Shown here: positions 40,329-51,074 of the stretch, piece by piece
How the letters are laid out: the number at the start of each line of letters is the position of its first letter
Position numbering within the stretch: the first letter of the stretch is position 1
Source: a phage
Length of the DNA stretch: 64,000 nt
NCBI GenBank assembly: GCA_025812035.1
Contig: GCA_025812035.1_4719.1
Reading direction: 5' to 3' (one strand)
Program-made: the position numbers and the translations under genes
Notes under the pieces: generated by a model
Told to the model about the DNA's origin: nothing
The model's database searches: none
The model's input: the letters and a program-made list of their open reading frames with translations, nothing else

Positions 40329-41975
40329 TTAGGCTCCACGAGGTCCCGTTAAGTTGCGTAATAGGAACGCAACCGTATCGTAACCAATATCGATGTTGAA
40401 TTTATTTTTACCACTTACCCAGAAAGCACGTTTCTTGTGCGAGTTGGTAATTTCGTCAATGGCTTCCATGGAATAAAGAACGTTAACCGAGACCGTATCG
40501 CCATCAAAGTCCCCACCAAGTCCGGCGAGGTACGGGGCTGGAACAATAGTCGTTTCTACGAACGAAGCATTAGGTAACCAATCTGGGTATTCCCATGCGA
40601 TAAATCGCTCATCCGTTATTGGTTCCCAGTTACTATCCAGTTCGGTTTTCGGTTTTGCTGCAACGGTCGTACGCGCATAACAGGTTAACGGAATGACGGA
40701 TTGCATACCCGATACCGGATAACGTGTTACCATCGCTGCCAGGTTATTCCAGTATTTATATCCAGCAATATAGATAAGCTCAGTATACGTAATGGGGTGA
40801 ACATCCGCCCCGGGTTTGTTAAGCATCTCTGGGGGTAATTCACTCATACCACGGAATAACCGAAACGAATCATTATTCACATAGACCAGGCAGAGATAAC
40901 GTCCATTGACCATGATAGGTTCGTTACGCACACCTGGATCGCTTAAGGTGTTCAGTAAACGTTCTATCCCATCCCATGTTGTAAAGTCATCGATGGTGTC
41001 TGGATCAAGCGTGACGCGTTCACGTTCCATCGTTTCGGTATCAATAAGTTCAACTTCTGTAACATCACGGACAAATATTTCCTGCAAAATCCCCGTACGT
41101 AACGCATGTTGCGTTACTGGGAGAGCAGCTTTACTCATCTGGTATAACCCTAACTGAACTGCAGTACAGGAAGGCTGGTTAGGCGACCCTAGTACCTCCG
41201 TTGTGGGGTTAATTGCTGAAATAACGTTACGGGTTGAGTTCCAAACACGACGTGAGCCGAACTTACCTTGGAAGATCCCTTTCTTACCTTGGAACATATC
41301 CAACAACAAAGCGTAGATGTCGTTAAATGTTCTCTGTAAGCTCCAGCGCTGACCGTCGTAAACGGGATCCGAATAATCTTTTAATCCATCCGGGACGGTG
41401 TTAGAAATTGCCAGGAAACGACGATACAACTCTGTGATTTCTTGCTCGCTTTCATACCCGCCTTCTTTTACTTCTATTTCACGTAAACCCGCAGGTAAAA
41501 CCAGTAGATGACGAGTCATCGCTTTGAACATGTTCTCTTCGACAACCTTGATTCGTAGCTCTCGTTGAGCTGAACCCGTTGAAACGAACTTGATATCAGC
41601 GACGTGTTGTGCAAAGAACCCGTATCCTGTTTGTCCTGTTAGCGCATCGGACGCAACGAAGTCACGTTGTTCAGGATCCCAACGCGCGTACGCCTTCCCC
41701 GACATGATATCACCGTAGAGGTGTTTTAGTCGAATGAGACGATCGTAGATGACAGGGTGTAGGATTTCAACTTTGCATTCAATCACCGCAAATCGACGGT
41801 CTCGATCTTCGCTACCCGCACTACCAAAGATGGTGTATGAATAGAAACCGTCATCGTGGAAATTACCGGTGCTTGGATCACGAATGCTCATGCTCGTGAT
41901 CTTGGGGAGAAAACGTAACTGCTGTTTATCGAGGTGTAAAATGCTAATATTAAACGGCTCTCTGACTTTAGCCAT
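40329..41975 (-). CDS. multisubunit RNA polymerase beta-prime-like N-terminal subunit
   Basis: Start trimmed to ATG 41975 (AAAGAGGAG RBS); RRFAVIECKVEILHPVIY resembles beta-prime RMGHIELAAPVAHIWF; GKFGSRRV...NVISAIN resembles [27 protein letters not shown] catalytic motif near C-terminus. Confidence 0.65.
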   Translation of the reverse strand: MAKVREPFNISILHLDKQQLRFLPKITSMSIRDPSTGNFHDDGFYSYTIFGSAGSEDRDRRFAVIECKVEILHPVIYDRLIRLKHLYGDIMSGKAYARWDPEQRDFVASDALTGQTGYGFFAQHVADIKFVSTGSAQRELRIKVVEENMFKAMTRHLLVLPAGLREIEVKEGGYESEQEITELYRRFLAISNTVPDGLKDYSDPVYDGQRWSLQRTFNDIYALLLDMFQGKKGIFQGKFGSRRVWNSTRNVISAINPTTEVLGSPNQPSCTAVQLGLYQMSKAALPVTQHALRTGILQEIFVRDVTEVELIDTETMERERVTLDPDTIDDFTTWDGIERLLNTLSDPGVRNEPIMVNGRYLCLVYVNNDSFRLFRGMSELPPEMLNKPGADVHPITYTELIYIAGYKYWNNLAAMVTRYPVSGMQSVIPLTCYARTTVAAKPKTELDSNWEPITDERFIAWEYPDWLPNASFVETTIVPAPYLAGLGGDFDGDTVSVNVLYSMEAIDEITNSHKKRAFWVSGKNKFNIDIGYDTVAFLLRNLTGPRGA

Positions 41976-42217
41976 GGAGACACTCCTCTTTACCACCACC
42001 GGCGGCGGTATCATCTGAACACACGAGAGACGTAATGGGTGATGGCGTCACCCATCGCTTCCTTGCTTGAGGCGAGGAAGTTATTAGGTTACGTACCTGT
42101 TTGATAAAATCAAACAGGCGATGTGTGAAGTTACGCTTCAACATTATCAATGCCGAAGGTAAACTTCGTGCATCACGTTCCAACGTAACATGGGAACGTA
42201 TCGAACTGGAGGTATAC

Positions 42218-45200
42218 ATGGTAGATAAAACCCGTGTTGAGGGTGATGATAATTGGGACAACTGGGATGAAGACTTCTCCCTGGATCTCGATTTTAACGA
42301 GCCTAAAGACGATCGTAAACCAATAACACGCTTTGCGATAGGAGCGGTTAAAGGTGCTGCTGAGGATCTTACTTCCTACGAAAGAATGAAGGAGATCGCC
42401 AGAAACGCATTGCCTAAGGGCTATAGCGACGGTATGGATCTTATCGATTCCGCCGTCGGATCCACGAAGGAACTATACAATGAAGCCGTTCGTGATGTTC
42501 TTCCTAAGGTCCAAAGCTCAAAACGGTTAGCAGCACAACTAACCAAGAAATATCGTGCAAGCATGCCCGATTTCTCGAAGAAAATTATCGAGCGTTGGGA
42601 GCAAGAAGCCAAAGAAGAAGACGAACGTAAACAGGCTGAAGCAGAACTCAAGCAACGCATGGCGAACGCGGGAGATGATGAAATCGCCCGTAAGGTTGCC
42701 GAAGCGTTAGGCGAGTCAGCAAACCAAAGCGCGGATCAGTTTGCCGAACAGCAAGCAAAAGAAAGTATCCGTGACGATATTGCCGACAAACGGTACGCTG
42801 TAACCAACAAACAAATGAGTGCGATGCAAGAAGGCGTCGCCAAGATGGTTGGTTTCAACAACGAATTCGCTGCACGCTACATGCGTAAAAGCCTGGAACT
42901 GAAATATCGTTCCTTAGCGATTCAACGTGCAAGTTTTGATCAGCATAAAAAGTTAGCCGAAGTCTATATCGGTTTATTACAAAACATCCAGAAGAACACG
43001 GCTTTACCTGATGCAGCTAAAGCGAAAATGTCGGAAGAATTCCGTCGTAGTGCATACCAACGTTTCTTTGGTAATGCGTTAGATGCGATGAGTTCTTTCG
43101 AGAGCCGTTTCTTTGCCGATGTTAAGAAAAACCTTGCCACCAACGCATTAGGTGCTTTAAAAGGCGTCGTGTCTGGAGCAAACGATGCGTTATACGGTTT
43201 AAACGAAGCGCGTGACTCGATGTCCATGATGGATGGGATGGGGTCAGAAGGCGATATTAAGGAAATGCAAGGAAAGATGTTGGGTCAGTTTATTGGCTCA
43301 ACTGTTGCACCATGGATGGCTAATAAAGGCATGATGGCATTACGCGATTTAGCAAAACGTCATCCCAATGCTAAATTCGCAAGTGCGTTAAAAGCCGTGG
43401 ATCAAGGTGGTGAGGCCGCCGCCTACACAACGCGTAATATCGGTAAACTGCTCCAGGAAGATATTCGTAAAAACGAATTCAATCTTAACGATCCGTTTTA
43501 CAAGCAGTTGTTACGTGGTGCAGGGCGTTGGGCGTTCAACATGGACAGTGGACGTAACTTCCGTGTGATGAACGACACCGCTGAAACACTGGCGGAGCAA
43601 ACGTCATTCGATGGTTTGACTTACCGCAGCATCAATGAGGTTATTCCTGGTTTTCTTGCTCGCATTCTGAAAAGCAGTGAAGGCATCCGCACGGGAAACA
43701 GTGATCCCGACTACGAGGTCTATGACGGCATCAGCGGGCAATTCGTGGCTCAGCGCACGCGCGAACAAAGCGTCAACGACACACTGTTTAACAAACGTTC
43801 GTTTGGTTATTACGCGAGTCGTTTCAATGAGGTCATCTCGGTCATCGATCCCGATAAACAGTTATCGGAAAAAGCCAGGAAGGCATTGGCTAAACAGCTG
43901 GCACGAGACAGTGACGCAAACATCGCATTCGACCCAGCTCGTTTTACGGATGAAAGTAACTTCGATCGCAGTATCGACCGTGACGCTATTAAGGAACTTT
44001 CCACGTACTTCCGTGACCGTTACGGTATTCGCGATCATGTCGATGATAAGGGCGAACGTCAGCAAGTCATTGAAAACCGCGGGCAATATTACACGGAACG
44101 TAACCGAGCGGATCTTCGTTACGGTAATCTGAAATCCTTACAGCCGGATATCCAGCGTAACCTTAACCTACTGAAACGTACTGGCGACGTCCAATATCTG
44201 GAACGTATCGGTATCGTAACAAGAAATAGTGACGGTAGCTACTCGGTTAACCACGATCGGTATTTCTCTGAAATCGATCAATACATCGATCGACCAGAGT
44301 ACGCTGACCGCGGCGATGTCAGTACGCGATTAACCGATCAGGAAACAAGAGCGCTGGCGCTGGGTTATCGTGACGCAAAACCATCAACTGGCGACGTCCA
44401 AAATTCTGGTCTGCCGAACATCGATCGTAAGGCTGCTGGAACAGTAACCGTTGATGAAAACATCGGTTACGATAAATGGTGGAATGACGCAGGTGTTATC
44501 ACCACATCGCTTGAAGAACAGAATCGAGCATGGCAAGAGCTTTATCTCGAAGCGCTGTCTGAAGCATCCGAACAACGTGTTGAGATGCTTGCGTTACTGA
44601 AAGCCATTTCTGAGAAAGACTGGTCTAATAACGTTTCGCTGGATGGCGAAGACGTACCTGAAGGTACAGCACCCATTTCGTTTATCGATCGCGCTAAACA
44701 AAAACTCGGTACACACAACCTCTTTAAACGTGGTCGTAATCTCCTCTGGAAAGGAATTAAAAATACCGCACGGTTGGGTGTTAAAGGTGCGCGTTGGGGT
44801 GCAGAACGCACGTTGGGTAGTTTGGTAAATTCTGGCCGACGTATTATCAACTTCAACCGCTTCGTGTTCGGCGCATTATCCAAGGTTGATCAGGTTCCAT
44901 TCGACATTTACGTTAAAGGGGAATCCCAACCGCGTATATTGGCAGCCAAGCTTCGTCAGGGGTTATACTTCGACGAAGCTACGGGAAAAGCCGTAAAACG
45001 GATGAAGGATATCAAAGGCCCACTCGTTGATGCAGATGGAAACATCGTAATCAGCAACGAGGATATCGAGAAAGGGCTGGTCACTCGCGCCGGTCGTGCT
45101 TTTGAGAATTCGGGACTTAAAGCGTGGGCGCGTGAAGGCCTTAATGGGATAACAACGGTATTAAGTCTACCACGGATGTTAAAACGCGGTGCGGTTGAGA

Positions 45201-48200
45201 TCTATAAACAGCTTGACAAGACGCCCGACGTTTACGTCAAAGGAGAATCAACACCTCGCCTACTGTCCATGGTGTTAGCGGCGGGCGGGTATTTCCGTCG
45301 CTCTGATGGACAAGTCATCAAAAATCTTGAAGACATTGACGGTGACGTTGTTGATGCGCAAGGTAACGTTGTACTTACGCTTGCCGACATGCAGAAAGGG
45401 CTTGTCGATAAAAACGGTAAAGCGATTCGTCGCTTAAAAGAAAAGCTTATCAACTTCGGTGTGAAAGCTTTCACGTTACCGTTAACCCTGCTACGTAAAA
45501 CAAAGGACATCCTTAAAACCCTTCCCAGTAAAACGGTTAATGGTTTACGACGGATGGGATTAAACTTCCAATCACCTGATGCATTATTGGTAGGAACAAC
45601 GTCGGGTATGGTAGATCGCCTCGATGCTATTTACCAGCTTCTTGACCAGCGTATGCCGGGTGGTGACAGGGATTATCGCGATTGGAATGGTGACGGTGTT
45701 CGAGAAGGATCGTTGGAAGACCTGAAACGTAAACGTGAAGCCAAGGAAAACGGTAAGGATAACGCAGGCAAAGATTCTGGTAAAGGAGAAGAAAAGGAGA
45801 AGAAACGAGGATTACTCGGAAGCCTTTTCGATATGCTCGGCGATACCGCGTTAGGTAAACGACTCATGGCGAGTCCGCTTGGAAAAATCCTAGGTGGTCT
45901 TGGGGCGGTGTTAAGTGGTGGTGCATCACTAACCGGGTTGTTAGGTAAGGGACTTGTTAGAGGAACCGGTGCGCTGGTTAGAGGAGGACTCAGTGCGGCG
46001 GGATGGTTAGGACGTGGTGCGCTGATGGCTGGTGGGGCCGCACTTAATGCTGTTGGTGGTATGGCTGGACTAGGCGCGTTCCTCATCTCACCTGTTGGGC
46101 TTGCTATTGCTGGCGGTGCGTTGGCTGCTTATGCTGGATGGAAAATCTATCAGCATTTCGCTGAGAAGCCTGACCCAATGCAGAAGCTCCGTCTTATTGC
46201 ATACGGTGCAAAAGGGGACGATAAAGACTTCAATAAGAAGTTGCTTGCGACAGAAACATACCTCACCGATCACGTGGTCATGACCGGGGACACCATCGGA
46301 TTCGATCCAAAAGCCGATTCTGAAAAGATTCTCGAAATCTGGGAATTGTCTCTGGAAGATTCCGATCGAATGAACGAATGGAAACGTTGGTATCTGCATC
46401 GTTTTATTCCTGTTTTCGCTCGTGCGTACAAACTCTGGAAAGAGCATATGCCGGACGAGAAGAAATACATGGAAATGGACAAATATCCAAACGGTGAGAA
46501 CAAAGTGAAATGGTCGGAAGCATTCATCTGGCCTTCCGATAGTCCTGACGGTCCGTATTACGTTGAGGCGAATCCGTTGGGTTCTTCCGGCGCGACGCTT
46601 TATATTGCCGGTCAAGACGTCAAAACCTTGATGCTGAAACAACTCGAAGCCATCAAGAAAGAGTACCAGAATCAGATTAAACAATACTCTCATGATGAGG
46701 CTATTGCTGATTGGTCACGGATGTCTGACACACAGCGTAAATCCGTCGCACCTAATGCGTTGCGAGGCCAGAAAGCGTCATTACGTTTTAACGATAAACG
46801 TTACAACAGTGCTGGTGCTAAAGGACGACAGAAACTGGATGCAACCGCGGTTATCGAAAGCGTAGACCGTCGTGGTAGAAAATGGGTTGCCGGTGGGTAC
46901 ATCGATGAACTCACCAGTCTCCGTGTTCGTGCGTACGGTATTAAGGTTCCGTTGCTAAGCCAGATAAAAGTGCTGATGGAACTCGAAGACGCTGTAGAAC
47001 CGGGCGTTGTCGCTGAAGGTAAAGGCGTTAAATACGGCGGTGATCTTGTCGCTCTCTACAAGAAATTCGCGACGAAGTTCGGAAGAGACGTTAACGGTAA
47101 ACAGGATCAGGATATCTGGTTTGCTTGGATGAACAACCGTTTCCTGCCCGTCTTTTTAACCTATTACCAACAAGTTAGCGAAATGGGTGGTCAAGGTCTT
47201 CTGTCCGATGTGGTACAGAACCTGAAAGACAGCCAACGTTGGGAAATCGGTGAAGCGCTTGTCGCGACGCAATACCGCGATAAAAAGGGTGCGCTACAAC
47301 CCGTGTGGTCGTGGAATAGCTGCGGTTTCTCCGGTACCGAAGCCAACACCACCAGCAGTTCAACAAAGAGCCAGCTCGATCTGTTAAAAGAATACGCGGA
47401 TAAAGAGAAGGTTCGTGAGAAGAACGCGGAAGCATCGCAAGAGGATACCGATAAATTATCGAAGATCCAAGAGCTGATGATGAAGCAGGCTGGGTACGAG
47501 AAGAAAGACGGTGTCTGGCAGAAGAAATCTCGCATTACCGGCGGAATGAGTAATTCCGAAGCGAATTACAACCCCAATGGGAATAAAGTCGGTGCAAGCA
47601 GCTTTACCGCCTCGGCTACTTCCGGTGCGGGATTGGGATCAACCGGCGATCTTACTGGGTTGCCGAACATGGGCTTACAGAAACCTGCAACGGGACCAGG
47701 TCCTGAAGCTGGACGACGTACGCTTGTTAAATCCGCTGTGAAACACGGCATCACCGATCCAATGGAAATGGCCATGTTCCTTGCGAACATCGAACATGAA
47801 TCGGGGAACTACACTCACGTACGTGAGGGGAACTATAAGACGCCCGAGCGTCTTAAACAGGTCTTCCCTTACAAATTCCGTGACGTGCAGGATGCCGCAC
47901 AGACGATTAGCATGGGGCCAGAAGCGGTATTCGAACGTGTGTATGGTAATCGTAAAGATCTAGGGAACACACAGAAAGGGGACGGAGCGAAGTATTTAGG
48001 ACGTGGCTTCATTCAGGTTACCGGTAAAGCTAACTACGCTCGTCTGTCCAAGACCTTGAATAAGGATCTTGTCAGCGATCCGTCTTACCTGGAAACGCCG
48101 GAAGGTGCAGCGGAAGGTAGTGTTGCGTGGTGGCTCAACCGAGGTAACGTACTACGTGATCCCGCAAAACGGGGTGATGTACGCAAAGTTCGTTATCTGG

Positions 48201-48883
48201 TTAACGGCGGCTATAACGGATTACGTGATGTCGAACAACGTTCTGCCTATTGGATTCAGGCGGCTAAGAATGGCACCCTGAAGAAAATGATGGACGAGTT
48301 ATCGGGATCAACATCGGGCGATCAAACTGAAGGACCAACTACCGCCGAACAGGTGAAGAACGAAGCAGCGCAGGAGGCAAACGGAACACCTGCGACAAGC
48401 AACGATCCGCAAGCTCCAGCGCCTTCTACCACCCCTGAAGCTAAACCGGCTGCGGCTGCCGGGACGGCTCCAGCACCCGGAGAAACGTCACCGACACCTG
48501 GAAGTTTCGAAACAGCAAAAGCCGCAGCAGGACAACCGGCATCAACCCCAGCACCGAGCGATTTACCGTCAAACCCCGGCGCAAATCGAGGGATATCGGT
48601 TCCGAGCACACCTACACAGGTTGCGCAGTCAGCGTCACAAACATCGGCTGCAAGCGAGAACTTCTACGGTAGCGCAGGCGAAATTCTCCGACAACAGCTG
48701 ACCACACAGCAGAACATCGAGAAGAACACTGGTAGAACGAATGAACTTATTTCGGAACTGATCCAGGCCGTTAAGGGTTCTTCTATCGGTAAGGGTTCTG
48801 CAAGTCCTTCTCAACAACAGACGATGCCGCTACCTAATCGTCCGCAAGGAATCTCTCCGACACGGACAAGGTACGCACAGTAG
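42218..48883 (+). CDS. giant virion-associated protein with C-terminal GH19 peptidoglycan-hydrolase domain (phiKZ gp181-like)
   Basis: ~2221 aa from ATG 42218 (GGAGG RBS); GH19-like block FLANIEHESGNY...YLGRGFIQVTGKANY (~47720-48290); Gly-rich hydrophobic segment; tandem ~105-aa repeat; Pro/Ala/Thr-rich tail. Confidence 0.7.
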   Translation: MVDKTRVEGDDNWDNWDEDFSLDLDFNEPKDDRKPITRFAIGAVKGAAEDLTSYERMKEIARNALPKGYSDGMDLIDSAVGSTKELYNEAVRDVLPKVQSSKRLAAQLTKKYRASMPDFSKKIIERWEQEAKEEDERKQAEAELKQRMANAGDDEIARKVAEALGESANQSADQFAEQQAKESIRDDIADKRYAVTNKQMSAMQEGVAKMVGFNNEFAARYMRKSLELKYRSLAIQRASFDQHKKLAEVYIGLLQNIQKNTALPDAAKAKMSEEFRRSAYQRFFGNALDAMSSFESRFFADVKKNLATNALGALKGVVSGANDALYGLNEARDSMSMMDGMGSEGDIKEMQGKMLGQFIGSTVAPWMANKGMMALRDLAKRHPNAKFASALKAVDQGGEAAAYTTRNIGKLLQEDIRKNEFNLNDPFYKQLLRGAGRWAFNMDSGRNFRVMNDTAETLAEQTSFDGLTYRSINEVIPGFLARILKSSEGIRTGNSDPDYEVYDGISGQFVAQRTREQSVNDTLFNKRSFGYYASRFNEVISVIDPDKQLSEKARKALAKQLARDSDANIAFDPARFTDESNFDRSIDRDAIKELSTYFRDRYGIRDHVDDKGERQQVIENRGQYYTERNRADLRYGNLKSLQPDIQRNLNLLKRTGDVQYLERIGIVTRNSDGSYSVNHDRYFSEIDQYIDRPEYADRGDVSTRLTDQETRALALGYRDAKPSTGDVQNSGLPNIDRKAAGTVTVDENIGYDKWWNDAGVITTSLEEQNRAWQELYLEALSEASEQRVEMLALLKAISEKDWSNNVSLDGEDVPEGTAPISFIDRAKQKLGTHNLFKRGRNLLWKGIKNTARLGVKGARWGAERTLGSLVNSGRRIINFNRFVFGALSKVDQVPFDIYVKGESQPRILAAKLRQGLYFDEATGKAVKRMKDIKGPLVDADGNIVISNEDIEKGLVTRAGRAFENSGLKAWAREGLNGITTVLSLPRMLKRGAVEIYKQLDKTPDVYVKGESTPRLLSMVLAAGGYFRRSDGQVIKNLEDIDGDVVDAQGNVVLTLADMQKGLVDKNGKAIRRLKEKLINFGVKAFTLPLTLLRKTKDILKTLPSKTVNGLRRMGLNFQSPDALLVGTTSGMVDRLDAIYQLLDQRMPGGDRDYRDWNGDGVREGSLEDLKRKREAKENGKDNAGKDSGKGEEKEKKRGLLGSLFDMLGDTALGKRLMASPLGKILGGLGAVLSGGASLTGLLGKGLVRGTGALVRGGLSAAGWLGRGALMAGGAALNAVGGMAGLGAFLISPVGLAIAGGALAAYAGWKIYQHFAEKPDPMQKLRLIAYGAKGDDKDFNKKLLATETYLTDHVVMTGDTIGFDPKADSEKILEIWELSLEDSDRMNEWKRWYLHRFIPVFARAYKLWKEHMPDEKKYMEMDKYPNGENKVKWSEAFIWPSDSPDGPYYVEANPLGSSGATLYIAGQDVKTLMLKQLEAIKKEYQNQIKQYSHDEAIADWSRMSDTQRKSVAPNALRGQKASLRFNDKRYNSAGAKGRQKLDATAVIESVDRRGRKWVAGGYIDELTSLRVRAYGIKVPLLSQIKVLMELEDAVEPGVVAEGKGVKYGGDLVALYKKFATKFGRDVNGKQDQDIWFAWMNNRFLPVFLTYYQQVSEMGGQGLLSDVVQNLKDSQRWEIGEALVATQYRDKKGALQPVWSWNSCGFSGTEANTTSSSTKSQLDLLKEYADKEKVREKNAEASQEDTDKLSKIQELMMKQAGYEKKDGVWQKKSRITGGMSNSEANYNPNGNKVGASSFTASATSGAGLGSTGDLTGLPNMGLQKPATGPGPEAGRRTLVKSAVKHGITDPMEMAMFLANIEHESGNYTHVREGNYKTPERLKQVFPYKFRDVQDAAQTISMGPEAVFERVYGNRKDLGNTQKGDGAKYLGRGFIQVTGKANYARLSKTLNKDLVSDPSYLETPEGAAEGSVAWWLNRGNVLRDPAKRGDVRKVRYLVNGGYNGLRDVEQRSAYWIQAAKNGTLKKMMDELSGSTSGDQTEGPTTAEQVKNEAAQEANGTPATSNDPQAPAPSTTPEAKPAAAAGTAPAPGETSPTPGSFETAKAAAGQPASTPAPSDLPSNPGANRGISVPSTPTQVAQSASQTSAASENFYGSAGEILRQQLTTQQNIEKNTGRTNELISELIQAVKGSSIGKGSASPSQQQTMPLPNRPQGISPTRTRYAQ
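44897..45540 (+). repeat. tandem duplication of a ~105-109-aa module inside the giant virion protein gene
   Basis: PFDIYVKGESQPRILAAKL... vs PDVYVKGESTPRLLSMVLA..., matching periodic D/G/K positions; diverged at nucleotide level. Confidence 0.5.
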
Positions 48884-48932: not shown

Positions 48933-51074
48933 ATGGGTATTCTTGTTCAAAACGCCCTAATCACCAAACAGGCGTTTTTATTACCAGGCGATAGCAGCAC
49001 GCTTAGTGCCGACATGATTAAAGCGAGACATACACCGTATTCCTACGATAACGTCGATGATACCACCTTAGGTGGGAACTGGGTGCTTAACCCACCACCG
49101 CAATATACAAAATTTGCTGATATCAAGGAACGACGGCGTGCGGTTATGCCGGGGTCAACGGGTATGGGTCGCGGCTACAGTGAAAGCATTAACAGCTTTA
49201 AAGAAGTCGTTACGTTACGATTCGGTAAACCTCGCTTTACAGGCGCAAGTATCTTCTTCACTGATTTCTACGATGCGGATGTTGCTGTAACGGTTAAAAC
49301 AGGCCGCGATCCTGGTATTCTTTATTACGCAGCCAAAGCGTATACGACCGTTCTTTCTTACCTCACACCCCTACCTTACTTGTATATGGTTGGACGTATC
49401 GGTCGATATTTCCTGGGTAAGCCTACCAGTCAATATTACTATCAAGTACCAACCATGCATGTGTATTGGGCGTCTTTCCAGACGCTGGTAAACCAAACAG
49501 CGATGAACATGGGCCTTATCGCTGGTGCAGGTAAAGATAAAGGTTACGTGGAAGAAGGAGGTACCGTACTCCACCAATATTCAATCGGTGGTCAGGATGT
49601 TAAAGAATTCCTCAATTACGCCTCTAAGACGTTACCGGGGATTTATAAGAAAGGCGGTGGGATCGATATCTACCAGATTGCGACACGACGTCAGCGTATA
49701 CAGAACGCGTGGGTACGTCGTATTCAATCCATGATGGAAAACGATTACTCGTCTTACGAGGAGTTCTGGAACGATCTTGATAAACGACTTGATAGCGGAG
49801 CATTTCCATCGGATGTTACCGGTCGTACGCTAACGCAGTATCTTGCCGACACACAGAAGTCTGCTGTTTACAGCGCGACAGCGGGTGATAATAAACAAAC
49901 GATGGACGACCTTTTATTCGGAAGAGCTTCATACACCAATAAAGATGCTGATGCCAACTTCAAAGTTTCAGCGGCTACCTCCGATGGTGGCACATCAGCG
50001 CAAAGCCAGGGTACCACAGCCAACGTAGGTAACTCAACATCAGGAACAACGCAAGCGTCGACAGCAGCGTCAACGGCTGGAGGTGCGAACGTACAGAGCA
50101 AAGGAATCGGGCAAACGAACGCCGCCGAAGAAGCTACGTTTCTTGATCTGATGGATGCTGAATTGGCTGACGGTGCTCAGTTTATCAGTTTTCGAGTCGA
50201 CTCTGTCACCAGCGTAACCGAAACGTTTTCAAACAGCGCTTCAGAAAGTTCGATCGCACAGACGATGAATAGCCGCGCGCAGGCGAACATCGAACGTCGT
50301 TTCACTCTTTCAGGTGGCAATACTGGATGGGCTGTACTGGACGAAGCAATCAAAGCCGGTTCCGATCTCGTTAACGGTGCTATTTCCGGGATGGGTCTGG
50401 ACGGTATTTTTGGTGCCTTCATGGGTTCCGGTTTTGCAGACATTCCGAAATTCTATTCTGGATCGTCGGTTAGTCTTCCACGTGCAGATCTGACGATGGA
50501 ATTACGTTCCTGGAGTGGGGATCGCTGGTCGATCTTTACAAACCTCATGGTACCTCTTTTAGCCATTCTTGCAGGTGGTTTACCTCAGGCTACCGGTAAA
50601 TCGTCCTACGGGATGCCATTCATGTGCGAATGTTATATTCCTGGTAAAGTCCAGATTAAAATGGGCCTTATCGACAATATCACCGTAACGCGCCATGTTG
50701 GTAACGTACCTTCAACACGTGAACGGTTACCATTAGGTATCGACGTCAGCTTCAGCGTTTATGACCTCTCGTCTATCGTCGCAATGCCGATCACGACGAC
50801 AGCCGCATCGATTGCAAAATTAGATCCTCGTGGCTTCTTAAGTGATCTTCTTGCTGACGATACGCCACTCAACAACTATCTTGCTGTGTTATCGGCATTG
50901 ACACTTACGGAACAAGTTTACATGATTCCTGATTTAAGTCGTCGCATGCATAAAACCATGGCCGATATCGATAGTTTCTGGAGTAAAGGTAATTTTGCTA
51001 GCTGGTTGTCTGACACCATGCCTGGCAGGATAGCATCAGGGCTGTTATGGAAACGTACAGAACGACCGTTCTGA
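48933..51074 (+). CDS. hypothetical protein (possible virion protein)
   Basis: 713 aa, GAGGAA RBS, co-oriented downstream of giant gene, followed by hairpin. Confidence 0.55.
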   Translation: MGILVQNALITKQAFLLPGDSSTLSADMIKARHTPYSYDNVDDTTLGGNWVLNPPPQYTKFADIKERRRAVMPGSTGMGRGYSESINSFKEVVTLRFGKPRFTGASIFFTDFYDADVAVTVKTGRDPGILYYAAKAYTTVLSYLTPLPYLYMVGRIGRYFLGKPTSQYYYQVPTMHVYWASFQTLVNQTAMNMGLIAGAGKDKGYVEEGGTVLHQYSIGGQDVKEFLNYASKTLPGIYKKGGGIDIYQIATRRQRIQNAWVRRIQSMMENDYSSYEEFWNDLDKRLDSGAFPSDVTGRTLTQYLADTQKSAVYSATAGDNKQTMDDLLFGRASYTNKDADANFKVSAATSDGGTSAQSQGTTANVGNSTSGTTQASTAASTAGGANVQSKGIGQTNAAEEATFLDLMDAELADGAQFISFRVDSVTSVTETFSNSASESSIAQTMNSRAQANIERRFTLSGGNTGWAVLDEAIKAGSDLVNGAISGMGLDGIFGAFMGSGFADIPKFYSGSSVSLPRADLTMELRSWSGDRWSIFTNLMVPLLAILAGGLPQATGKSSYGMPFMCECYIPGKVQIKMGLIDNITVTRHVGNVPSTRERLPLGIDVSFSVYDLSSIVAMPITTTAASIAKLDPRGFLSDLLADDTPLNNYLAVLSALTLTEQVYMIPDLSRRMHKTMADIDSFWSKGNFASWLSDTMPGRIASGLLWKRTERPF

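What the first reader, a model, noticed from the sequence alone, without database searches (positions are those of the whole stretch)
42218..48883. Giant ~2221-aa virion protein with GH19 muralytic domain, glycine-zipper-like segment and Pro/Ala/Thr-rich tail
Size and position match phiKZ gp181, but the enzymatic domain looks GH19 (chitinase-like) rather than a lytic transglycosylase, suggesting a domain swap. Two Glu ten residues apart (EHESGNYTHVREG) are spaced like GH19 catalytic residues. A Gly-rich hydrophobic stretch (~45820-46150) could insert into membrane during ejection.
Basis: partly seen in the sequence, partly recalled or inferred. Interest (0 to 1): 0.75.

Follow-up and report, generated by a model that had tools for sequence, protein, structure and literature searches.

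The report
Giant phage tail protein, swapped lysin

Summary
Window 42218-48883 (+) is one uninterrupted 2,221-aa ORF with a GGAGG ribosome-binding site. It is 93% (nt) / 97% (aa) identical to Escherichia phage Goslar gene Goslar_00232 (RefSeq HOV27_gp204), annotated 'putative chitinase, COG3179'.

It is colinear with phiKZ gp181 over about 1,650 residues and has the same neighbours. Where gp181 has an SLT domain, this protein has a GH19 endolysin-type domain (aa 1836-2031). All nine active-site residues of the solved muramidase PaGH19Lys are kept. The catalytic pair is E1861/E1870, nine residues apart, not ten.

The Gly/Ala/Leu-rich hydrophobic segment (aa 1197-1311) and the Pro/Ala/Thr-rich stretch (aa 2034-2145) are real. 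In a 2026 preprint the Goslar orthologue was found in purified virions at about 3-8 copies.

Across 105 family members the lysin is an internal, exchangeable cassette, mostly SLT, with GH19 in 10 and M23, CHAP or VanY in others. It lies between a conserved scaffold and a conserved C-terminal helix. The hydrophobic segment is also a family feature.

The best reading is a tape-measure-like, ejected tail-lumen protein. That role is inferred, not shown.

Novelty is low: a new member of a known kind.

The parts
42208..42212 (+). Ribosome-binding site GGAGG, 5 nt upstream of ATG 42218
   Evidence: Read directly from the sequence. Homologue N-termini align to this Met.
42218..48883 (+). Complete CDS, 2,221 aa plus stop. 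Orthologue of Goslar HOV27_gp204 / Goslar_00232 and homologue of phiKZ gp181.
42317..43702 (+). aa 34-495: region of long predicted alpha-helices (82% helix, including one helix of 143 residues). It holds the conserved motifs YMRKSLELKYR and KNTALPD.
   Evidence: AlphaFold2 model, at low confidence (pLDDT mostly 35-70). Conservation.
43715..44317 (+). aa 500-700: confidently predicted alpha/beta globular domain (pLDDT 80-90). Just upstream lies the most conserved motif of the family, SINEVIPGFLARILKSSEGIRTG (aa 471-493).
   Evidence: No PDB fold match.
44882..45457 (+). Internal repeat A, two copies (aa 889-970 and 998-1080): small beta-rich modules with the pattern D.YVKGE..PR...G.Y....G..I....DI.G.V.D..GN.V.
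   Evidence: Self-BLASTP gives 42% identity, E 4e-23. pLDDT 75-80. Also present in phiKZ gp181.
45806..46150 (+). aa 1197-1311: Gly/Ala/Leu-rich hydrophobic segment, the only transmembrane-grade hydrophobicity in the protein. Its core is GAFLISPVGLAIAGGALA.
   Evidence: Conserved across the family: 88 of 105 members have a Kyte-Doolittle (19-residue window) peak of at least 1.6, and members whose peak is at least 1.2 have it at a median relative position of 0.59. Most peak segments inspected carry an SPV.LG-like signature.
46175..47497 (+). Internal repeat B, two copies (aa 1320-1490 and 1564-1760): alpha/beta domains with the conserved pattern R..(A/Q)YG ... W..W...RF.PV.
47510..47722 (+). 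aa 1765-1835: Gly/Ser/Thr-rich, predicted disordered linker upstream of the lysin cassette
   Evidence: pLDDT below 50. Composition.
47723..48310 (+). aa 1836-2031: GH19 endolysin-subfamily (muramidase-type) catalytic domain
47798..47827 (+). Catalytic pair: E1861 (codon 47798-47800) and E1870 (codon 47825-47827), preceded by H1860. Downstream active-site residues are Y1909, Q1933, T1935, V1995, N1996 and R2008.
   Evidence: These align with H50, E51, E60, Y103, Q127, T129, I187, N188 and R197 of PaGH19Lys, PDB 9EOI (residues listed in PMC12329726). They match GH19ED positions E49, E58 and T130 (PMC8547705). E1861, E1870, Y1909, Q1933, T1935 and N1996 are invariant in all 7 family cassettes aligned.
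48317..48652 (+). aa 2034-2145: Pro/Ala/Thr-rich low-complexity linker
   Evidence: A tryptic peptide of the Goslar orthologue from this stretch was seen in virions.
48665..48772 (+). aa 2150-2185: conserved C-terminal amphipathic helix (EILRQQLTTQQNIEKN...LISELIQAV)
   Evidence: A QQL.(V/T)Q-type motif occurs in the last 110 aa of 62 of 105 family members, against 0.016 expected per window. The motif was defined after seeing the data.
48773..48880 (+). aa 2186-2221: C-terminal tail ending RPQGISPTRTRYAQ, a divergent form of the family's terminal P.PVSM.R-like motif
48933..51074 (+). Downstream co-oriented gene (713 aa): homologue of phiKZ gp182 (baseplate 'spacer' ring) and Goslar gp203 (tail-tube initiator complex)
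   Evidence: BLASTP 1e-58 to gp182. Structural roles from PMC13250141 and the Goslar preprint. Synteny is kept in distant members.
40329..42014 (-). Upstream divergent gene (561 aa): virion RNA polymerase beta-subunit fragment, homologue of phiKZ gp180 / Goslar gp205. Listed as context only.

Best explanation
The gene encodes the Goslar-lineage member of the phiKZ gp181 family. This is a low-copy, essential, virion-borne tail protein that most likely lies inside the tail tube as a tape-measure-like protein and is expelled first when the sheath contracts.

Proposed sequence of events (inferred):
- During assembly, the conserved C-terminal helix and basic tail anchor the protein at the baseplate hub, spacer or tube-initiator.
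- The long helical N-terminal half then extends up the lumen.
- On contraction the protein is expelled. The GH19 domain, tethered between two disordered linkers, hydrolyses the MurNAc-GlcNAc bond of peptidoglycan locally.
- The conserved Gly/Ala-rich hydrophobic hairpin then inserts into the inner membrane to help form the DNA conduit.

Shown here:
- homology and synteny with gp181;
- a GH19 endolysin-type domain with an intact active site in place of SLT;
- the lysin is an internal cassette that varies across the family;
- the hydrophobic segment and the C-terminal module are conserved;
- the near-identical orthologue is in virions at a few copies (from the literature).

Inferred only: location in the lumen, length-measuring function, order of events, membrane insertion and enzymatic activity.
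For: Identity:
- 93% nt / 97% aa identity to Goslar Goslar_00232 = HOV27_gp204, 'putative chitinase'.
- Colinear BLASTP to phiKZ gp181 at 4e-43 and 1e-36.
- The gene order virion RNA polymerase beta (-) | giant gene (+) | gp182-like gene (+) is the same in phiKZ and in two distant GH19-type members.

Enzyme:
- PDB GH19 endolysins match at 3e-23 to 1e-19.
- All nine PaGH19Lys active-site residues are kept.
- The cassette profile hits 4OK7 at 2e-42 and more than 30 GH19 chitinases.
- PaGH19Lys is a proven muramidase (PMC12329726).

Virion:
- Goslar YP_009820915.1 gave 34 peptides at 24.5% coverage, with an estimated 3.4-8 copies per virion, and is labelled 'Tail protein'.
- Peptides come from aa 393-406 and from the C-terminal PAT stretch.

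Tape-measure reading:
- The spike and hub of Goslar and phiKZ are built from other proteins, and gp181/gp204 is unmodelled in both cryo-EM studies.
- The gene lies next to the tube-initiator/spacer gene, as T4 gene 29 lies next to gene 48 (T4 gene order is from my own knowledge).
- The first 495 aa are predicted 82% helical with very long helices.
- A hydrophobic segment plus a lysin domain is the layout reported for tape measures such as T5 Pb2 (listed as a tail-tube muralytic protein in PMC5380687).
- By my arithmetic, 3-6 copies would occupy about 15-31% of a lumen 68 A wide and 162 nm long (dimensions).
Against: - There is no direct evidence of location. Neither cryo-EM study reports lumen density assigned to this protein.
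- No Pfam, NCBIfam or PHROG tape-measure family is hit. PHROG 3201 is labelled 'tail fiber protein'.
- The AF2 model has low confidence (mean pLDDT 55). It also contains several globular modules (aa 500-700, repeats A and B) that a simple helical ruler would not need.
- The distance from the N-terminus to the hydrophobic segment is longer in phiKZ (about 1,345 aa, 43 tube rings) than here (about 1,289 aa; Goslar has 46 rings). Length is therefore not simply proportional to tail length.
- The window's own Pfam GH19 score is below the curated threshold.
- Enzymatic activity is untested.
Confidence: 0.7

Rival explanations
1. It is an internal head (ejection) protein, analogous to T7 gp16. On this view it is packaged in the capsid with the virion RNA polymerase and ejected through the tail, where it digests peptidoglycan and forms a trans-envelope channel.
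For: - The gene lies head-to-head with virion RNA polymerase genes, whose phiKZ products are annotated 'structural head protein'.
- Chimalliviruses eject many virion proteins.
- Low copy number, a lysin domain and a hydrophobic segment fit either model.
- Internal head proteins of T7-like phages that carry lysin activity are listed in PMC5380687.
Against: - It is co-oriented with, and immediately upstream of, a baseplate spacer/tube-initiator gene, and this pairing is conserved in distant relatives.
- The Goslar mass-spectrometry table labels it 'Tail protein', and phiKZ literature treats gp181 as tail-associated.
- No PF12699 (phiKZ internal-head-protein) domain is detected.
Confidence: 0.12
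2. It is the needle-like cell-puncturing device of the baseplate, which is the original proposal for phiKZ gp181.
For: The review PMC5380687 lists gp181 as a 'needle-like cell-puncturing device, putative trimer', citing Briers 2008 and Fokine. A lysin on the spike would parallel T4 gp5.
Against: - High-resolution structures show the spike, spike tip and hub built from other proteins: Goslar gp13 and gp48, and phiKZ gp164, gp163.1 and gp101.
- No beta-helix or OB-fold spike module was predicted or matched.
Confidence: 0.04
3. It is a tail fibre, as RefSeq and PHROG 3201 label it, with an enzymatic receptor-degrading (chitinase) tip.
For: The RefSeq product name is 'tail fiber protein', the PHROG 3201 label is the same, and Goslar's GenBank label is 'putative chitinase'.
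Against: - No fibre-like fold, trimeric beta-helix or receptor-binding domain was found.
- It has an internal transmembrane-grade hydrophobic segment.
- The domain belongs to the endolysin branch of GH19, not the chitinase branch: PDB endolysins score 1e-19 to 3e-23, chitinases about 1e-3.
- In both cryo-EM structures, other proteins are assigned to the baseplate periphery and filaments.
Confidence: 0.03

Closest known systems
Escherichia phage Goslar HOV27_gp204 / Goslar_00232 (YP_009820915.1, QBO64023.1), 'putative chitinase' / 'tail fiber protein'
   Same: It is the orthologue: 93% nt and 97% aa identity over the full length, with the same flanking genes and the same GH19 domain, hydrophobic segment and C-terminal tail. 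It was detected in purified virions at an estimated 3.4-8 copies.
   Different: The annotated Goslar start lies 93 nt further upstream and is probably over-extended. Goslar carries a 2,054-bp group I intron plus ORF179-like gene in the neighbouring RNA polymerase gene, which this window lacks.
Pseudomonas phage phiKZ gp181 (NP_803747.1), structural peptidoglycan hydrolase / proposed tape measure
   Same: - Similar size (2,237 against 2,221 aa).
- Colinear homology from aa 35 to about 1650, including repeats A and B.
- Same locus, between the virion RNA polymerase beta gene and gp182.
- The lysin domain sits at the same relative position and is followed by a low-complexity linker and a C-terminal helix.
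   Different: - The catalytic domain is SLT (PF01464, aa 1885-1978) instead of GH19. That is non-hydrolytic transglycosylation versus hydrolysis of the same MurNAc-GlcNAc bond.
- The hydrophobic segment is much weaker in phiKZ: its Kyte-Doolittle maximum is 1.25, and that peak lies inside the SLT domain.
- Identity is only 24-25%.
GH19 endolysins: Salmonella phage SPN1S endolysin (PDB 4OK7) and Pseudomonas PaGH19Lys (PDB 9EOI)
   Same: The catalytic domain is homologous (1e-19 and 3e-23 for the single sequence; 2e-42 and 5e-37 for the cassette profile). The Glu/Glu pair 9 residues apart, the HES motif, GRG..Q.T..NY and NGG are all conserved.
   Different: Those enzymes are free endolysins of about 200 aa that act from inside the cell at lysis. 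Here the domain is embedded at aa 1836-2031 of a virion protein. Identity is 30-38%, and the domain lacks the SPN1S-type extra helical peptidoglycan-binding insert (the query is shorter across that region).
Tape measure proteins that carry lysin and membrane-insertion modules, such as T5 Pb2. Mycobacteriophage TM4 Tmp and T4 gp29 are cited from my own knowledge.
   Same: - Very long and largely helical.
- Few copies per virion.
- A muralytic module and a hydrophobic segment in the C-terminal half.
- The gene is adjacent to tube-initiator/hub genes.
- Proposed to be expelled first and to open the envelope. Pb2 is listed as a tail-tube muralytic protein.
   Different: - No sequence or profile similarity to any tape-measure family was detected.
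- It is far longer than needed for a tail of about 180 nm if fully helical.
- It contains several globular repeats.
- The length-ruler function has not been demonstrated.
Ralstonia phage RSL2 gp181-family protein (UniProt A0A0A8J8P3, 'GH19 catalytic domain-containing protein') and metagenomic members P0021, P0046, P0058 and P0064
   Same: Same scaffold family with a GH19 cassette in place of SLT. Same synteny where checked.
   Different: - The scaffolds are only 24-27% identical to the window protein.
- The cassettes are 37-41% identical.
- On the scaffold tree they sit next to SLT-bearing relatives.
- P0058 carries an additional VanY domain.

Membership tests
Glycoside hydrolase family 19, endolysin (ELYS) subfamily | Significant profile similarity to the GH19 catalytic domain | tested here: met
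   - Pfam PF00182 is the only family hit, but at 23.2-23.8 bits against a cut-off of 25.5, so it is sub-threshold for this sequence.
- phmmer against solved GH19 endolysins gives 3e-23 to 1e-19.
- A profile of seven family cassettes hits 4OK7 at 2e-42 and more than 30 GH19 chitinases at 1e-16 to 6e-8, and nothing outside GH19-type proteins.
- All 7 cassettes hit PF00182, with a best E-value of 8e-18.
Glycoside hydrolase family 19, endolysin (ELYS) subfamily | The two catalytic glutamates (GH19ED assigns E49 as proton donor and E58 as base in SPN1S numbering; E51/E60 in PaGH19Lys), 9 residues apart, within an H-E-S...E motif | tested here: met
   H1860-E1861-S1862 and E1870 align to H50-E51-S52 and E60 of 9EOI. 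Roles are taken from PMC8547705 and PMC12329726. Both glutamates are invariant in all 7 family cassettes.
Glycoside hydrolase family 19, endolysin (ELYS) subfamily | Water-coordinating Thr/Ser and substrate-binding residues (Y106, G123-R124-G125, Q128, T130, N134 in SPN1S numbering) | tested here: met
   Y1909 and G1928-R-G-F-I-Q1933-V-T1935-G-K-A-N-Y are present. The NGG motif and R2008 align to I187-N188 and R197 of 9EOI.
Glycoside hydrolase family 19, endolysin (ELYS) subfamily | All-alpha lysozyme-like two-lobe fold | not tested
The fold is inferred from full-domain sequence alignment to 9EOI and 4OK7.
Glycoside hydrolase family 19, endolysin (ELYS) subfamily | Hydrolysis of the MurNAc-GlcNAc bond of peptidoglycan (muramidase), with little or no chitinase activity | not testable with these tools
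   This needs enzyme assays. The activity has been shown for the homologue PaGH19Lys.
phiKZ gp181 family (giant virion-associated lysin / putative tape measure of phiKZ-like jumbo phages) | Colinear homology of the roughly 1,700-aa scaffold | tested here: met
   BLASTP to gp181 covers aa 35-683 and aa 887 to about 1650. PHROG 3201 scores 1e-293. 103 homologues were found.
phiKZ gp181 family (giant virion-associated lysin / putative tape measure of phiKZ-like jumbo phages) | Locus between the divergent virion RNA polymerase beta gene and the gp182-type baseplate spacer gene | tested here: met
phiKZ gp181 family (giant virion-associated lysin / putative tape measure of phiKZ-like jumbo phages) | Presence in the mature virion | tested here: met
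   This rests on the 97%-identical Goslar orthologue, not on this phage itself: 34 peptides at 24.5% coverage in purified virions (bioRxiv 10.64898/2026.04.21.720040, Table S4).
phiKZ gp181 family (giant virion-associated lysin / putative tape measure of phiKZ-like jumbo phages) | SLT (lytic transglycosylase) catalytic domain, as in the type member | tested here: not met
   There is no PF01464 hit in the window protein, whereas gp181 has one. This feature is variable across the family: 63 of 105 members have SLT, 10 have GH19, and others have M23, CHAP, VanY or PF21277. It therefore does not define membership.
Phage tail tape measure protein (functional class) | Occupies the tail-tube lumen and sets tail length | not testable with these tools
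   The protein is unmodelled in both the Goslar and phiKZ cryo-EM studies. The assignment is proposed in PMC12676376.
Phage tail tape measure protein (functional class) | Long, predominantly alpha-helical polypeptide | tested here: inconclusive
   aa 34-495 are 82% helix with a 143-residue helix, but confidence is low. The rest mixes helices with globular modules.
Phage tail tape measure protein (functional class) | Similarity to a curated tape-measure family | tested here: not met
   No tape-measure family appears in the Pfam, NCBIfam or PHROG hits. BFVD 'tape measure' entries appear only at E above 3.
Phage tail tape measure protein (functional class) | Few copies per virion; gene adjacent to tube-initiator/hub genes | tested here: met
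   Estimated at 3.4-8 copies. In the same table, the tube-initiator protein modelled at 6 copies was estimated at 2.3-5.4. The downstream gene is the tube-initiator/spacer.

The most novel reading that the evidence does not exclude
The gp181 family may be a modular 'envelope-breaching' scaffold with two features.

- Its lysin is a recombination-exchangeable internal cassette, bounded by disordered linkers and conserved flanks. GH19 cassettes from giant proteins cluster together against free endolysins, yet they sit on unrelated scaffolds.
- Its conserved SPV.LG hydrophobic hairpin, expelled first from the tail, inserts into the inner membrane. There it might seed or remain in the lipid early-infection (EPI) vesicle that encloses the injected chimallivirus genome.
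Probability: 0.1. Interest if true: 0.7.

Novelty: new member of a known kind. Interest (0 to 1): 0.3.

Why it matters
For this window the result is mainly a correct annotation. The gene is a virion tail protein with a GH19 muramidase module. It is not a chitinase, as in Goslar's GenBank label, and not a tail fibre, as in the RefSeq and PHROG labels.

The family-level picture is more useful.
- The largest and essential gene of phiKZ-like jumbo phages is built as a conserved scaffold with a plug-in peptidoglycan-cleaving cassette (SLT, GH19, M23, CHAP, VanY and others).
- It also carries a conserved membrane-grade hairpin and a conserved C-terminal anchor.
- This gives concrete, mutable targets for testing how these phages cross the envelope and start the vesicle-enclosed infection: E1861/E1870, the hairpin and the C-terminal helix.
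- The GH19 module is also a ready-made, virion-derived lysin candidate active on an E. coli host.

Tried and rejected
- NCBIfam gave no hit for the protein or the isolated domain.
- Pfam found nothing for the N-terminal 1,161 aa, the middle 666 aa or the C-terminal 197 aa beyond noise such as Talin_R4 and MOLO1.
- Foldseek of the N-terminal model against PDB gave nothing below E 0.2.
- jackhmmer with the last 78 aa did not reach beyond the Goslar clade. The conservation of the C-terminal module therefore rests on a motif I defined after seeing the sequences.
- Two large alignments failed in the tool, so smaller ones were used.
- Searching the Goslar supplementary peptide list for GH19-domain peptides found none. 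The stored file is truncated, so this says nothing either way.
- The promoter and terminator scans showed no enrichment over shuffles.
- Three readings were rejected (see rival explanations): spike or needle, because the structures assign other proteins; tail fibre, because there is no fibre fold and there is an internal hydrophobic segment; chitinase, because the domain belongs to the endolysin branch of GH19.
- I did not pursue the idea that tail length scales simply with scaffold length. The one comparison available, phiKZ against Goslar, goes the wrong way.

Full report
**1. The observation**

Window 42218-48883 (+) is an uninterrupted reading frame. The longest ORF runs from TTG 42101 (2,260 aa), and ATG 42218 gives 2,221 aa. 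A GGAGG lies at 42208-42212, five bases before the ATG. In a 23-sequence alignment the N-termini of homologues align to this Met. The start annotated in the closest published genome is 93 nt further upstream and looks over-extended. Base-composition skews change sign at about 42 kb, as expected for the switch from minus-strand to plus-strand genes.

**2. Where the window comes from**

Megablast finds Escherichia phage vB_EcoM_Goslar at 93.2% identity over the whole gene, and tblastn gives 97% amino-acid identity. The Goslar gene is Goslar_00232 (GenBank, 'putative chitinase ... conserved domain COG3179') and HOV27_gp204 (RefSeq, 'tail fiber protein'). The GH19-like nature of this protein has therefore been in a public annotation since Goslar was deposited.

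**3. Relation to phiKZ gp181**

- phiKZ has the same gene order: gp178 (-), gp179 (-), gp180 (-), gp181 (+, 2,237 aa), gp182 (+).
- BLASTP of the window protein against gp181 gives two colinear blocks, aa 35-683 (E 4e-43) and aa 887 to about 1650 (E 1e-36), at 24-25% identity.
- The downstream 713-aa ORF (48933-51074) matches gp182 at 1e-58.
- gp181 carries Pfam SLT at aa 1885-1978. The window protein has no SLT hit.

**4. The enzymatic domain**

Pfam's only hit is Glyco_hydro_19, and it is below the gathering score: 18.4 bits for the whole protein and 23.2-23.8 bits for the isolated domain, against a cut-off of 25.5. NCBIfam has nothing. Stronger evidence comes from elsewhere.
- PHROG 181 'endolysin' scores 9e-53.
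- phmmer against PDB chains gives PaGH19Lys 9EOI at 3e-23, 7R6S at 4e-22, the PWe1 and PWe2 endolysins, the SPN1S endolysin 4OK7 at 1e-19, and true GH19 chitinases at about 1e-3.
- A profile built from seven cassettes of the gp181 family hits 4OK7 at 2e-42 and more than 30 GH19 chitinases at 1e-16 to 6e-8.
- All seven cassettes hit PF00182, with a best E-value of 8e-18.

In the alignment to 9EOI, H1860, E1861, E1870, Y1909, Q1933, T1935, V1995, N1996 and R2008 correspond to H50, E51, E60, Y103, Q127, T129, I187, N188 and R197. The PaGH19Lys structure paper lists these as the active site, with E51 and E60 as the catalytic pair (PMC12329726). They also match the GH19 Engineering Database positions E49, E58 and T130 (PMC8547705). 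E1861 and E1870 are invariant in all family cassettes, whereas E1859, the first Glu of 'EHES', is not. The catalytic glutamates are therefore nine residues apart. PaGH19Lys is an experimentally proven muramidase with no chitinase activity. 'Muramidase' is thus the appropriate prediction and 'chitinase' a misnomer.

**5. The rest of the protein**

- Hydrophobic segment: aa 1197-1311 is 23% Gly, 15% Ala and 16% Leu. It is the only place where Kyte-Doolittle hydropathy (19-residue window) exceeds 1.2, with peaks at 1.6 and 1.91 against a maximum of 0.86 elsewhere.
- PAT-rich stretch: aa 2034-2145 is 50-55% Pro+Ala+Thr against 18% overall.
- N-terminal half: AlphaFold2 with a 23-sequence alignment predicts aa 34-495 as 82% helix, including a 143-residue helix, at low confidence. 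It predicts a confident alpha/beta domain at aa 500-700 and two small beta-rich repeats. The repeats (aa 889-970 and 998-1080) are 42% identical to each other (E 4e-23).
- Middle region: it folds as two copies of an alpha/beta domain (aa 1320-1490 and 1564-1760, pLDDT about 85; self-BLAST E 1e-5).

**6. The family**

A search with the first 1,750 aa returned 103 proteins of 1.3-3.0 kaa.
- Their precomputed Pfam domains are mostly SLT. They also include GH19 (4 proteins), Peptidase_M23, VanY, CHAP, PF18013, PF21277, Peptidase_S74 and DUF5675.
- Re-scanning with seeds found SLT in 63 and GH19 in 10 of 105 sequences, counting the window protein and gp181.
- On a rough neighbour-joining tree of the N-terminal 650 aa, GH19 bearers fall in five places: the Goslar clade, P0064, P0058, P0021 and P0046. 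At least three of these (P0064, P0021, P0046) sit directly beside SLT-bearing sisters.
- On a tree of GH19 domains, the giant-protein cassettes form one group apart from 53 free endolysins of about 200-300 aa that were picked as the nearest relatives of the window's cassette. Taken together, this suggests cassette exchange between scaffolds rather than repeated capture. The trees are crude and this remains an inference.
- After the lysin, members of both SLT and GH19 types show a low-complexity linker, an amphipathic helix with a QQL.(V/T)Q-type motif, and a short terminal P.PVSM.R-like motif. The helix motif is in the last 110 aa of 62 of 105 members, against 0.016 expected. The terminal motif, in the form I searched for, is in 63 of 105. 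I defined both motifs after looking at the sequences. The lysin is therefore an internal cassette, not a C-terminal add-on.
- The hydrophobic segment is also a family trait. 88 of 105 members reach a Kyte-Doolittle peak of at least 1.6; among members whose peak is at least 1.2 the median relative position is 0.59, and most peak segments inspected carry an 'SPV.LG' signature.
- The locus (RNA polymerase beta on the minus strand, the giant gene, then the gp182-like gene) is kept in two distant GH19-type members from metagenomic or bacterial assemblies.

**7. What the literature adds**

- A 2026 preprint on the Goslar virion (bioRxiv 10.64898/2026.04.21.720040) does not model or discuss this protein. 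Its Table S4 lists YP_009820915.1 with 34 peptides, 24.5% coverage and an estimated 3.4 / 5.1 / 8.0 copies per virion, tagged 'Tail protein'.
- Peptides from aa 393-406 and from the PAT-rich stretch are present in that table, so both ends survive in the virion.
- The same work assigns the spike to gp13, the spike cap to gp48 and the tube initiator to gp62 plus gp203, the neighbour of our gene. It counts 46 tube layers of 39.2 A, or about 180 nm.
- The phiKZ structural atlas (PMC13250141) likewise omits gp181. It assigns the spike, tip and hub to gp164, gp163.1 and gp101, calls gp182 the 'spacer' ring, and gives a lumen of about 68 A and 43 rings of 37.7 A.
[quoted passage not shown] 2012 (PMC12676376).
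- Older reviews describe gp181 as a needle-like puncturing device with proven muralytic activity (PMC5380687).

**8. Mechanism**

The best-supported model is a tape-measure-like protein in the tail lumen. It would be anchored at the hub or initiator by its conserved C-terminal module and expelled on contraction. Its tethered GH19 domain would then cut the glycan strands locally, and the hydrophobic hairpin would enter the inner membrane. Support comes from the following.
- The copy number is low.
- The protein is absent from symmetric maps.
- It is excluded from the spike.
- The gene is linked to the initiator gene.
- The N-terminal half is predicted to be helical.
- The hairpin-plus-lysin layout resembles that of tape measures such as T5 Pb2.
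- By my arithmetic, 3-6 copies (about 3.0e5 A^3 each) would fill about 15-31% of a 68 A x 162 nm lumen, so the protein would fit.

Against the model:
- There are no location data.
- No tape-measure family is hit.
- The protein contains several globular inserts.
- The length comparison between phiKZ and Goslar goes the wrong way.

The main rival is an internal head ejection protein in the manner of T7 gp16, at about 12%. The needle and tail-fibre readings are largely excluded.

**9. Novelty**

The window protein is a near-identical orthologue of an annotated gene, and GH19 variants of the family are already labelled in public databases. I found no paper in the searchable library that describes the cassette architecture, the conserved hairpin or the C-terminal module. 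That family-level description has modest interest. The verdict is a new member of a known kind, with interest of about 0.3.

Noticed in passing
window 40499-40510 (within the minus-strand ORF 40329-42014), compared with Goslar MK327938 211745-213798: Goslar has a 2,054-bp insertion here: an annotated group I intron (ncRNA 211817-212245) plus the ORF179-like gene Goslar_00230. The window lacks this insertion. As a result the window's virion RNA polymerase beta-fragment gene is one continuous 561-aa ORF, an intron-less allele, whereas Goslar annotates 502 aa.
   Followed up: partly
window 42125 versus 42218: Goslar's annotated start for the orthologue corresponds to GTG 42125, which adds 31 aa. 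The strong GGAGG at 42208-42212 and the aligned N-termini of more than 20 homologues favour ATG 42218. The published start is probably over-extended.
   Followed up: yes
window 42096-42118: A perfect 9-bp inverted repeat, CCTGTTTGA-TAAAA-TCAAACAGG, lies in the 203-nt divergent intergenic region between the RNA polymerase gene and the giant gene. No T-run follows it. It could be a regulatory or bidirectional stop element.
   Followed up: no
window 48933-51074 (+): The 713-aa downstream ORF has no Pfam hit. [quoted passage not shown] It has a Ser/Thr/Ala/Gly-rich insert at about aa 340-400 that is absent from gp182.
   Followed up: partly
protein P0104: NCBI holds a 161-aa 'glycoside hydrolase family 19 protein, partial [Escherichia coli]' on a 484-nt contig. 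It is 98% identical to the window's GH19 domain. This is most likely a Goslar-like phage fragment filed under E. coli.
   Followed up: no
locus L005 (GCA_001544975.2, Caballeronia arationis assembly, 143.7-kb contig) and P0051, P0052, P0060 (Paraburkholderia assemblies, contigs of 283-493 kb): Full gp181-family genes with jumbo-phage synteny sit in bacterial genome assemblies. One is named 'cell pole-organizing protein PopZ'. This suggests phiKZ-like phage genomes carried along, or mis-binned, in Burkholderiaceae isolates.
   Followed up: no
window 44882-45457 and 46175-47497: There are two different internal duplications, repeat A x2 and repeat B x2. Their copy number varies among family members, with 1-4 matches to the repeat-A region. 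Neither has a recognisable fold match in PDB.
   Followed up: partly
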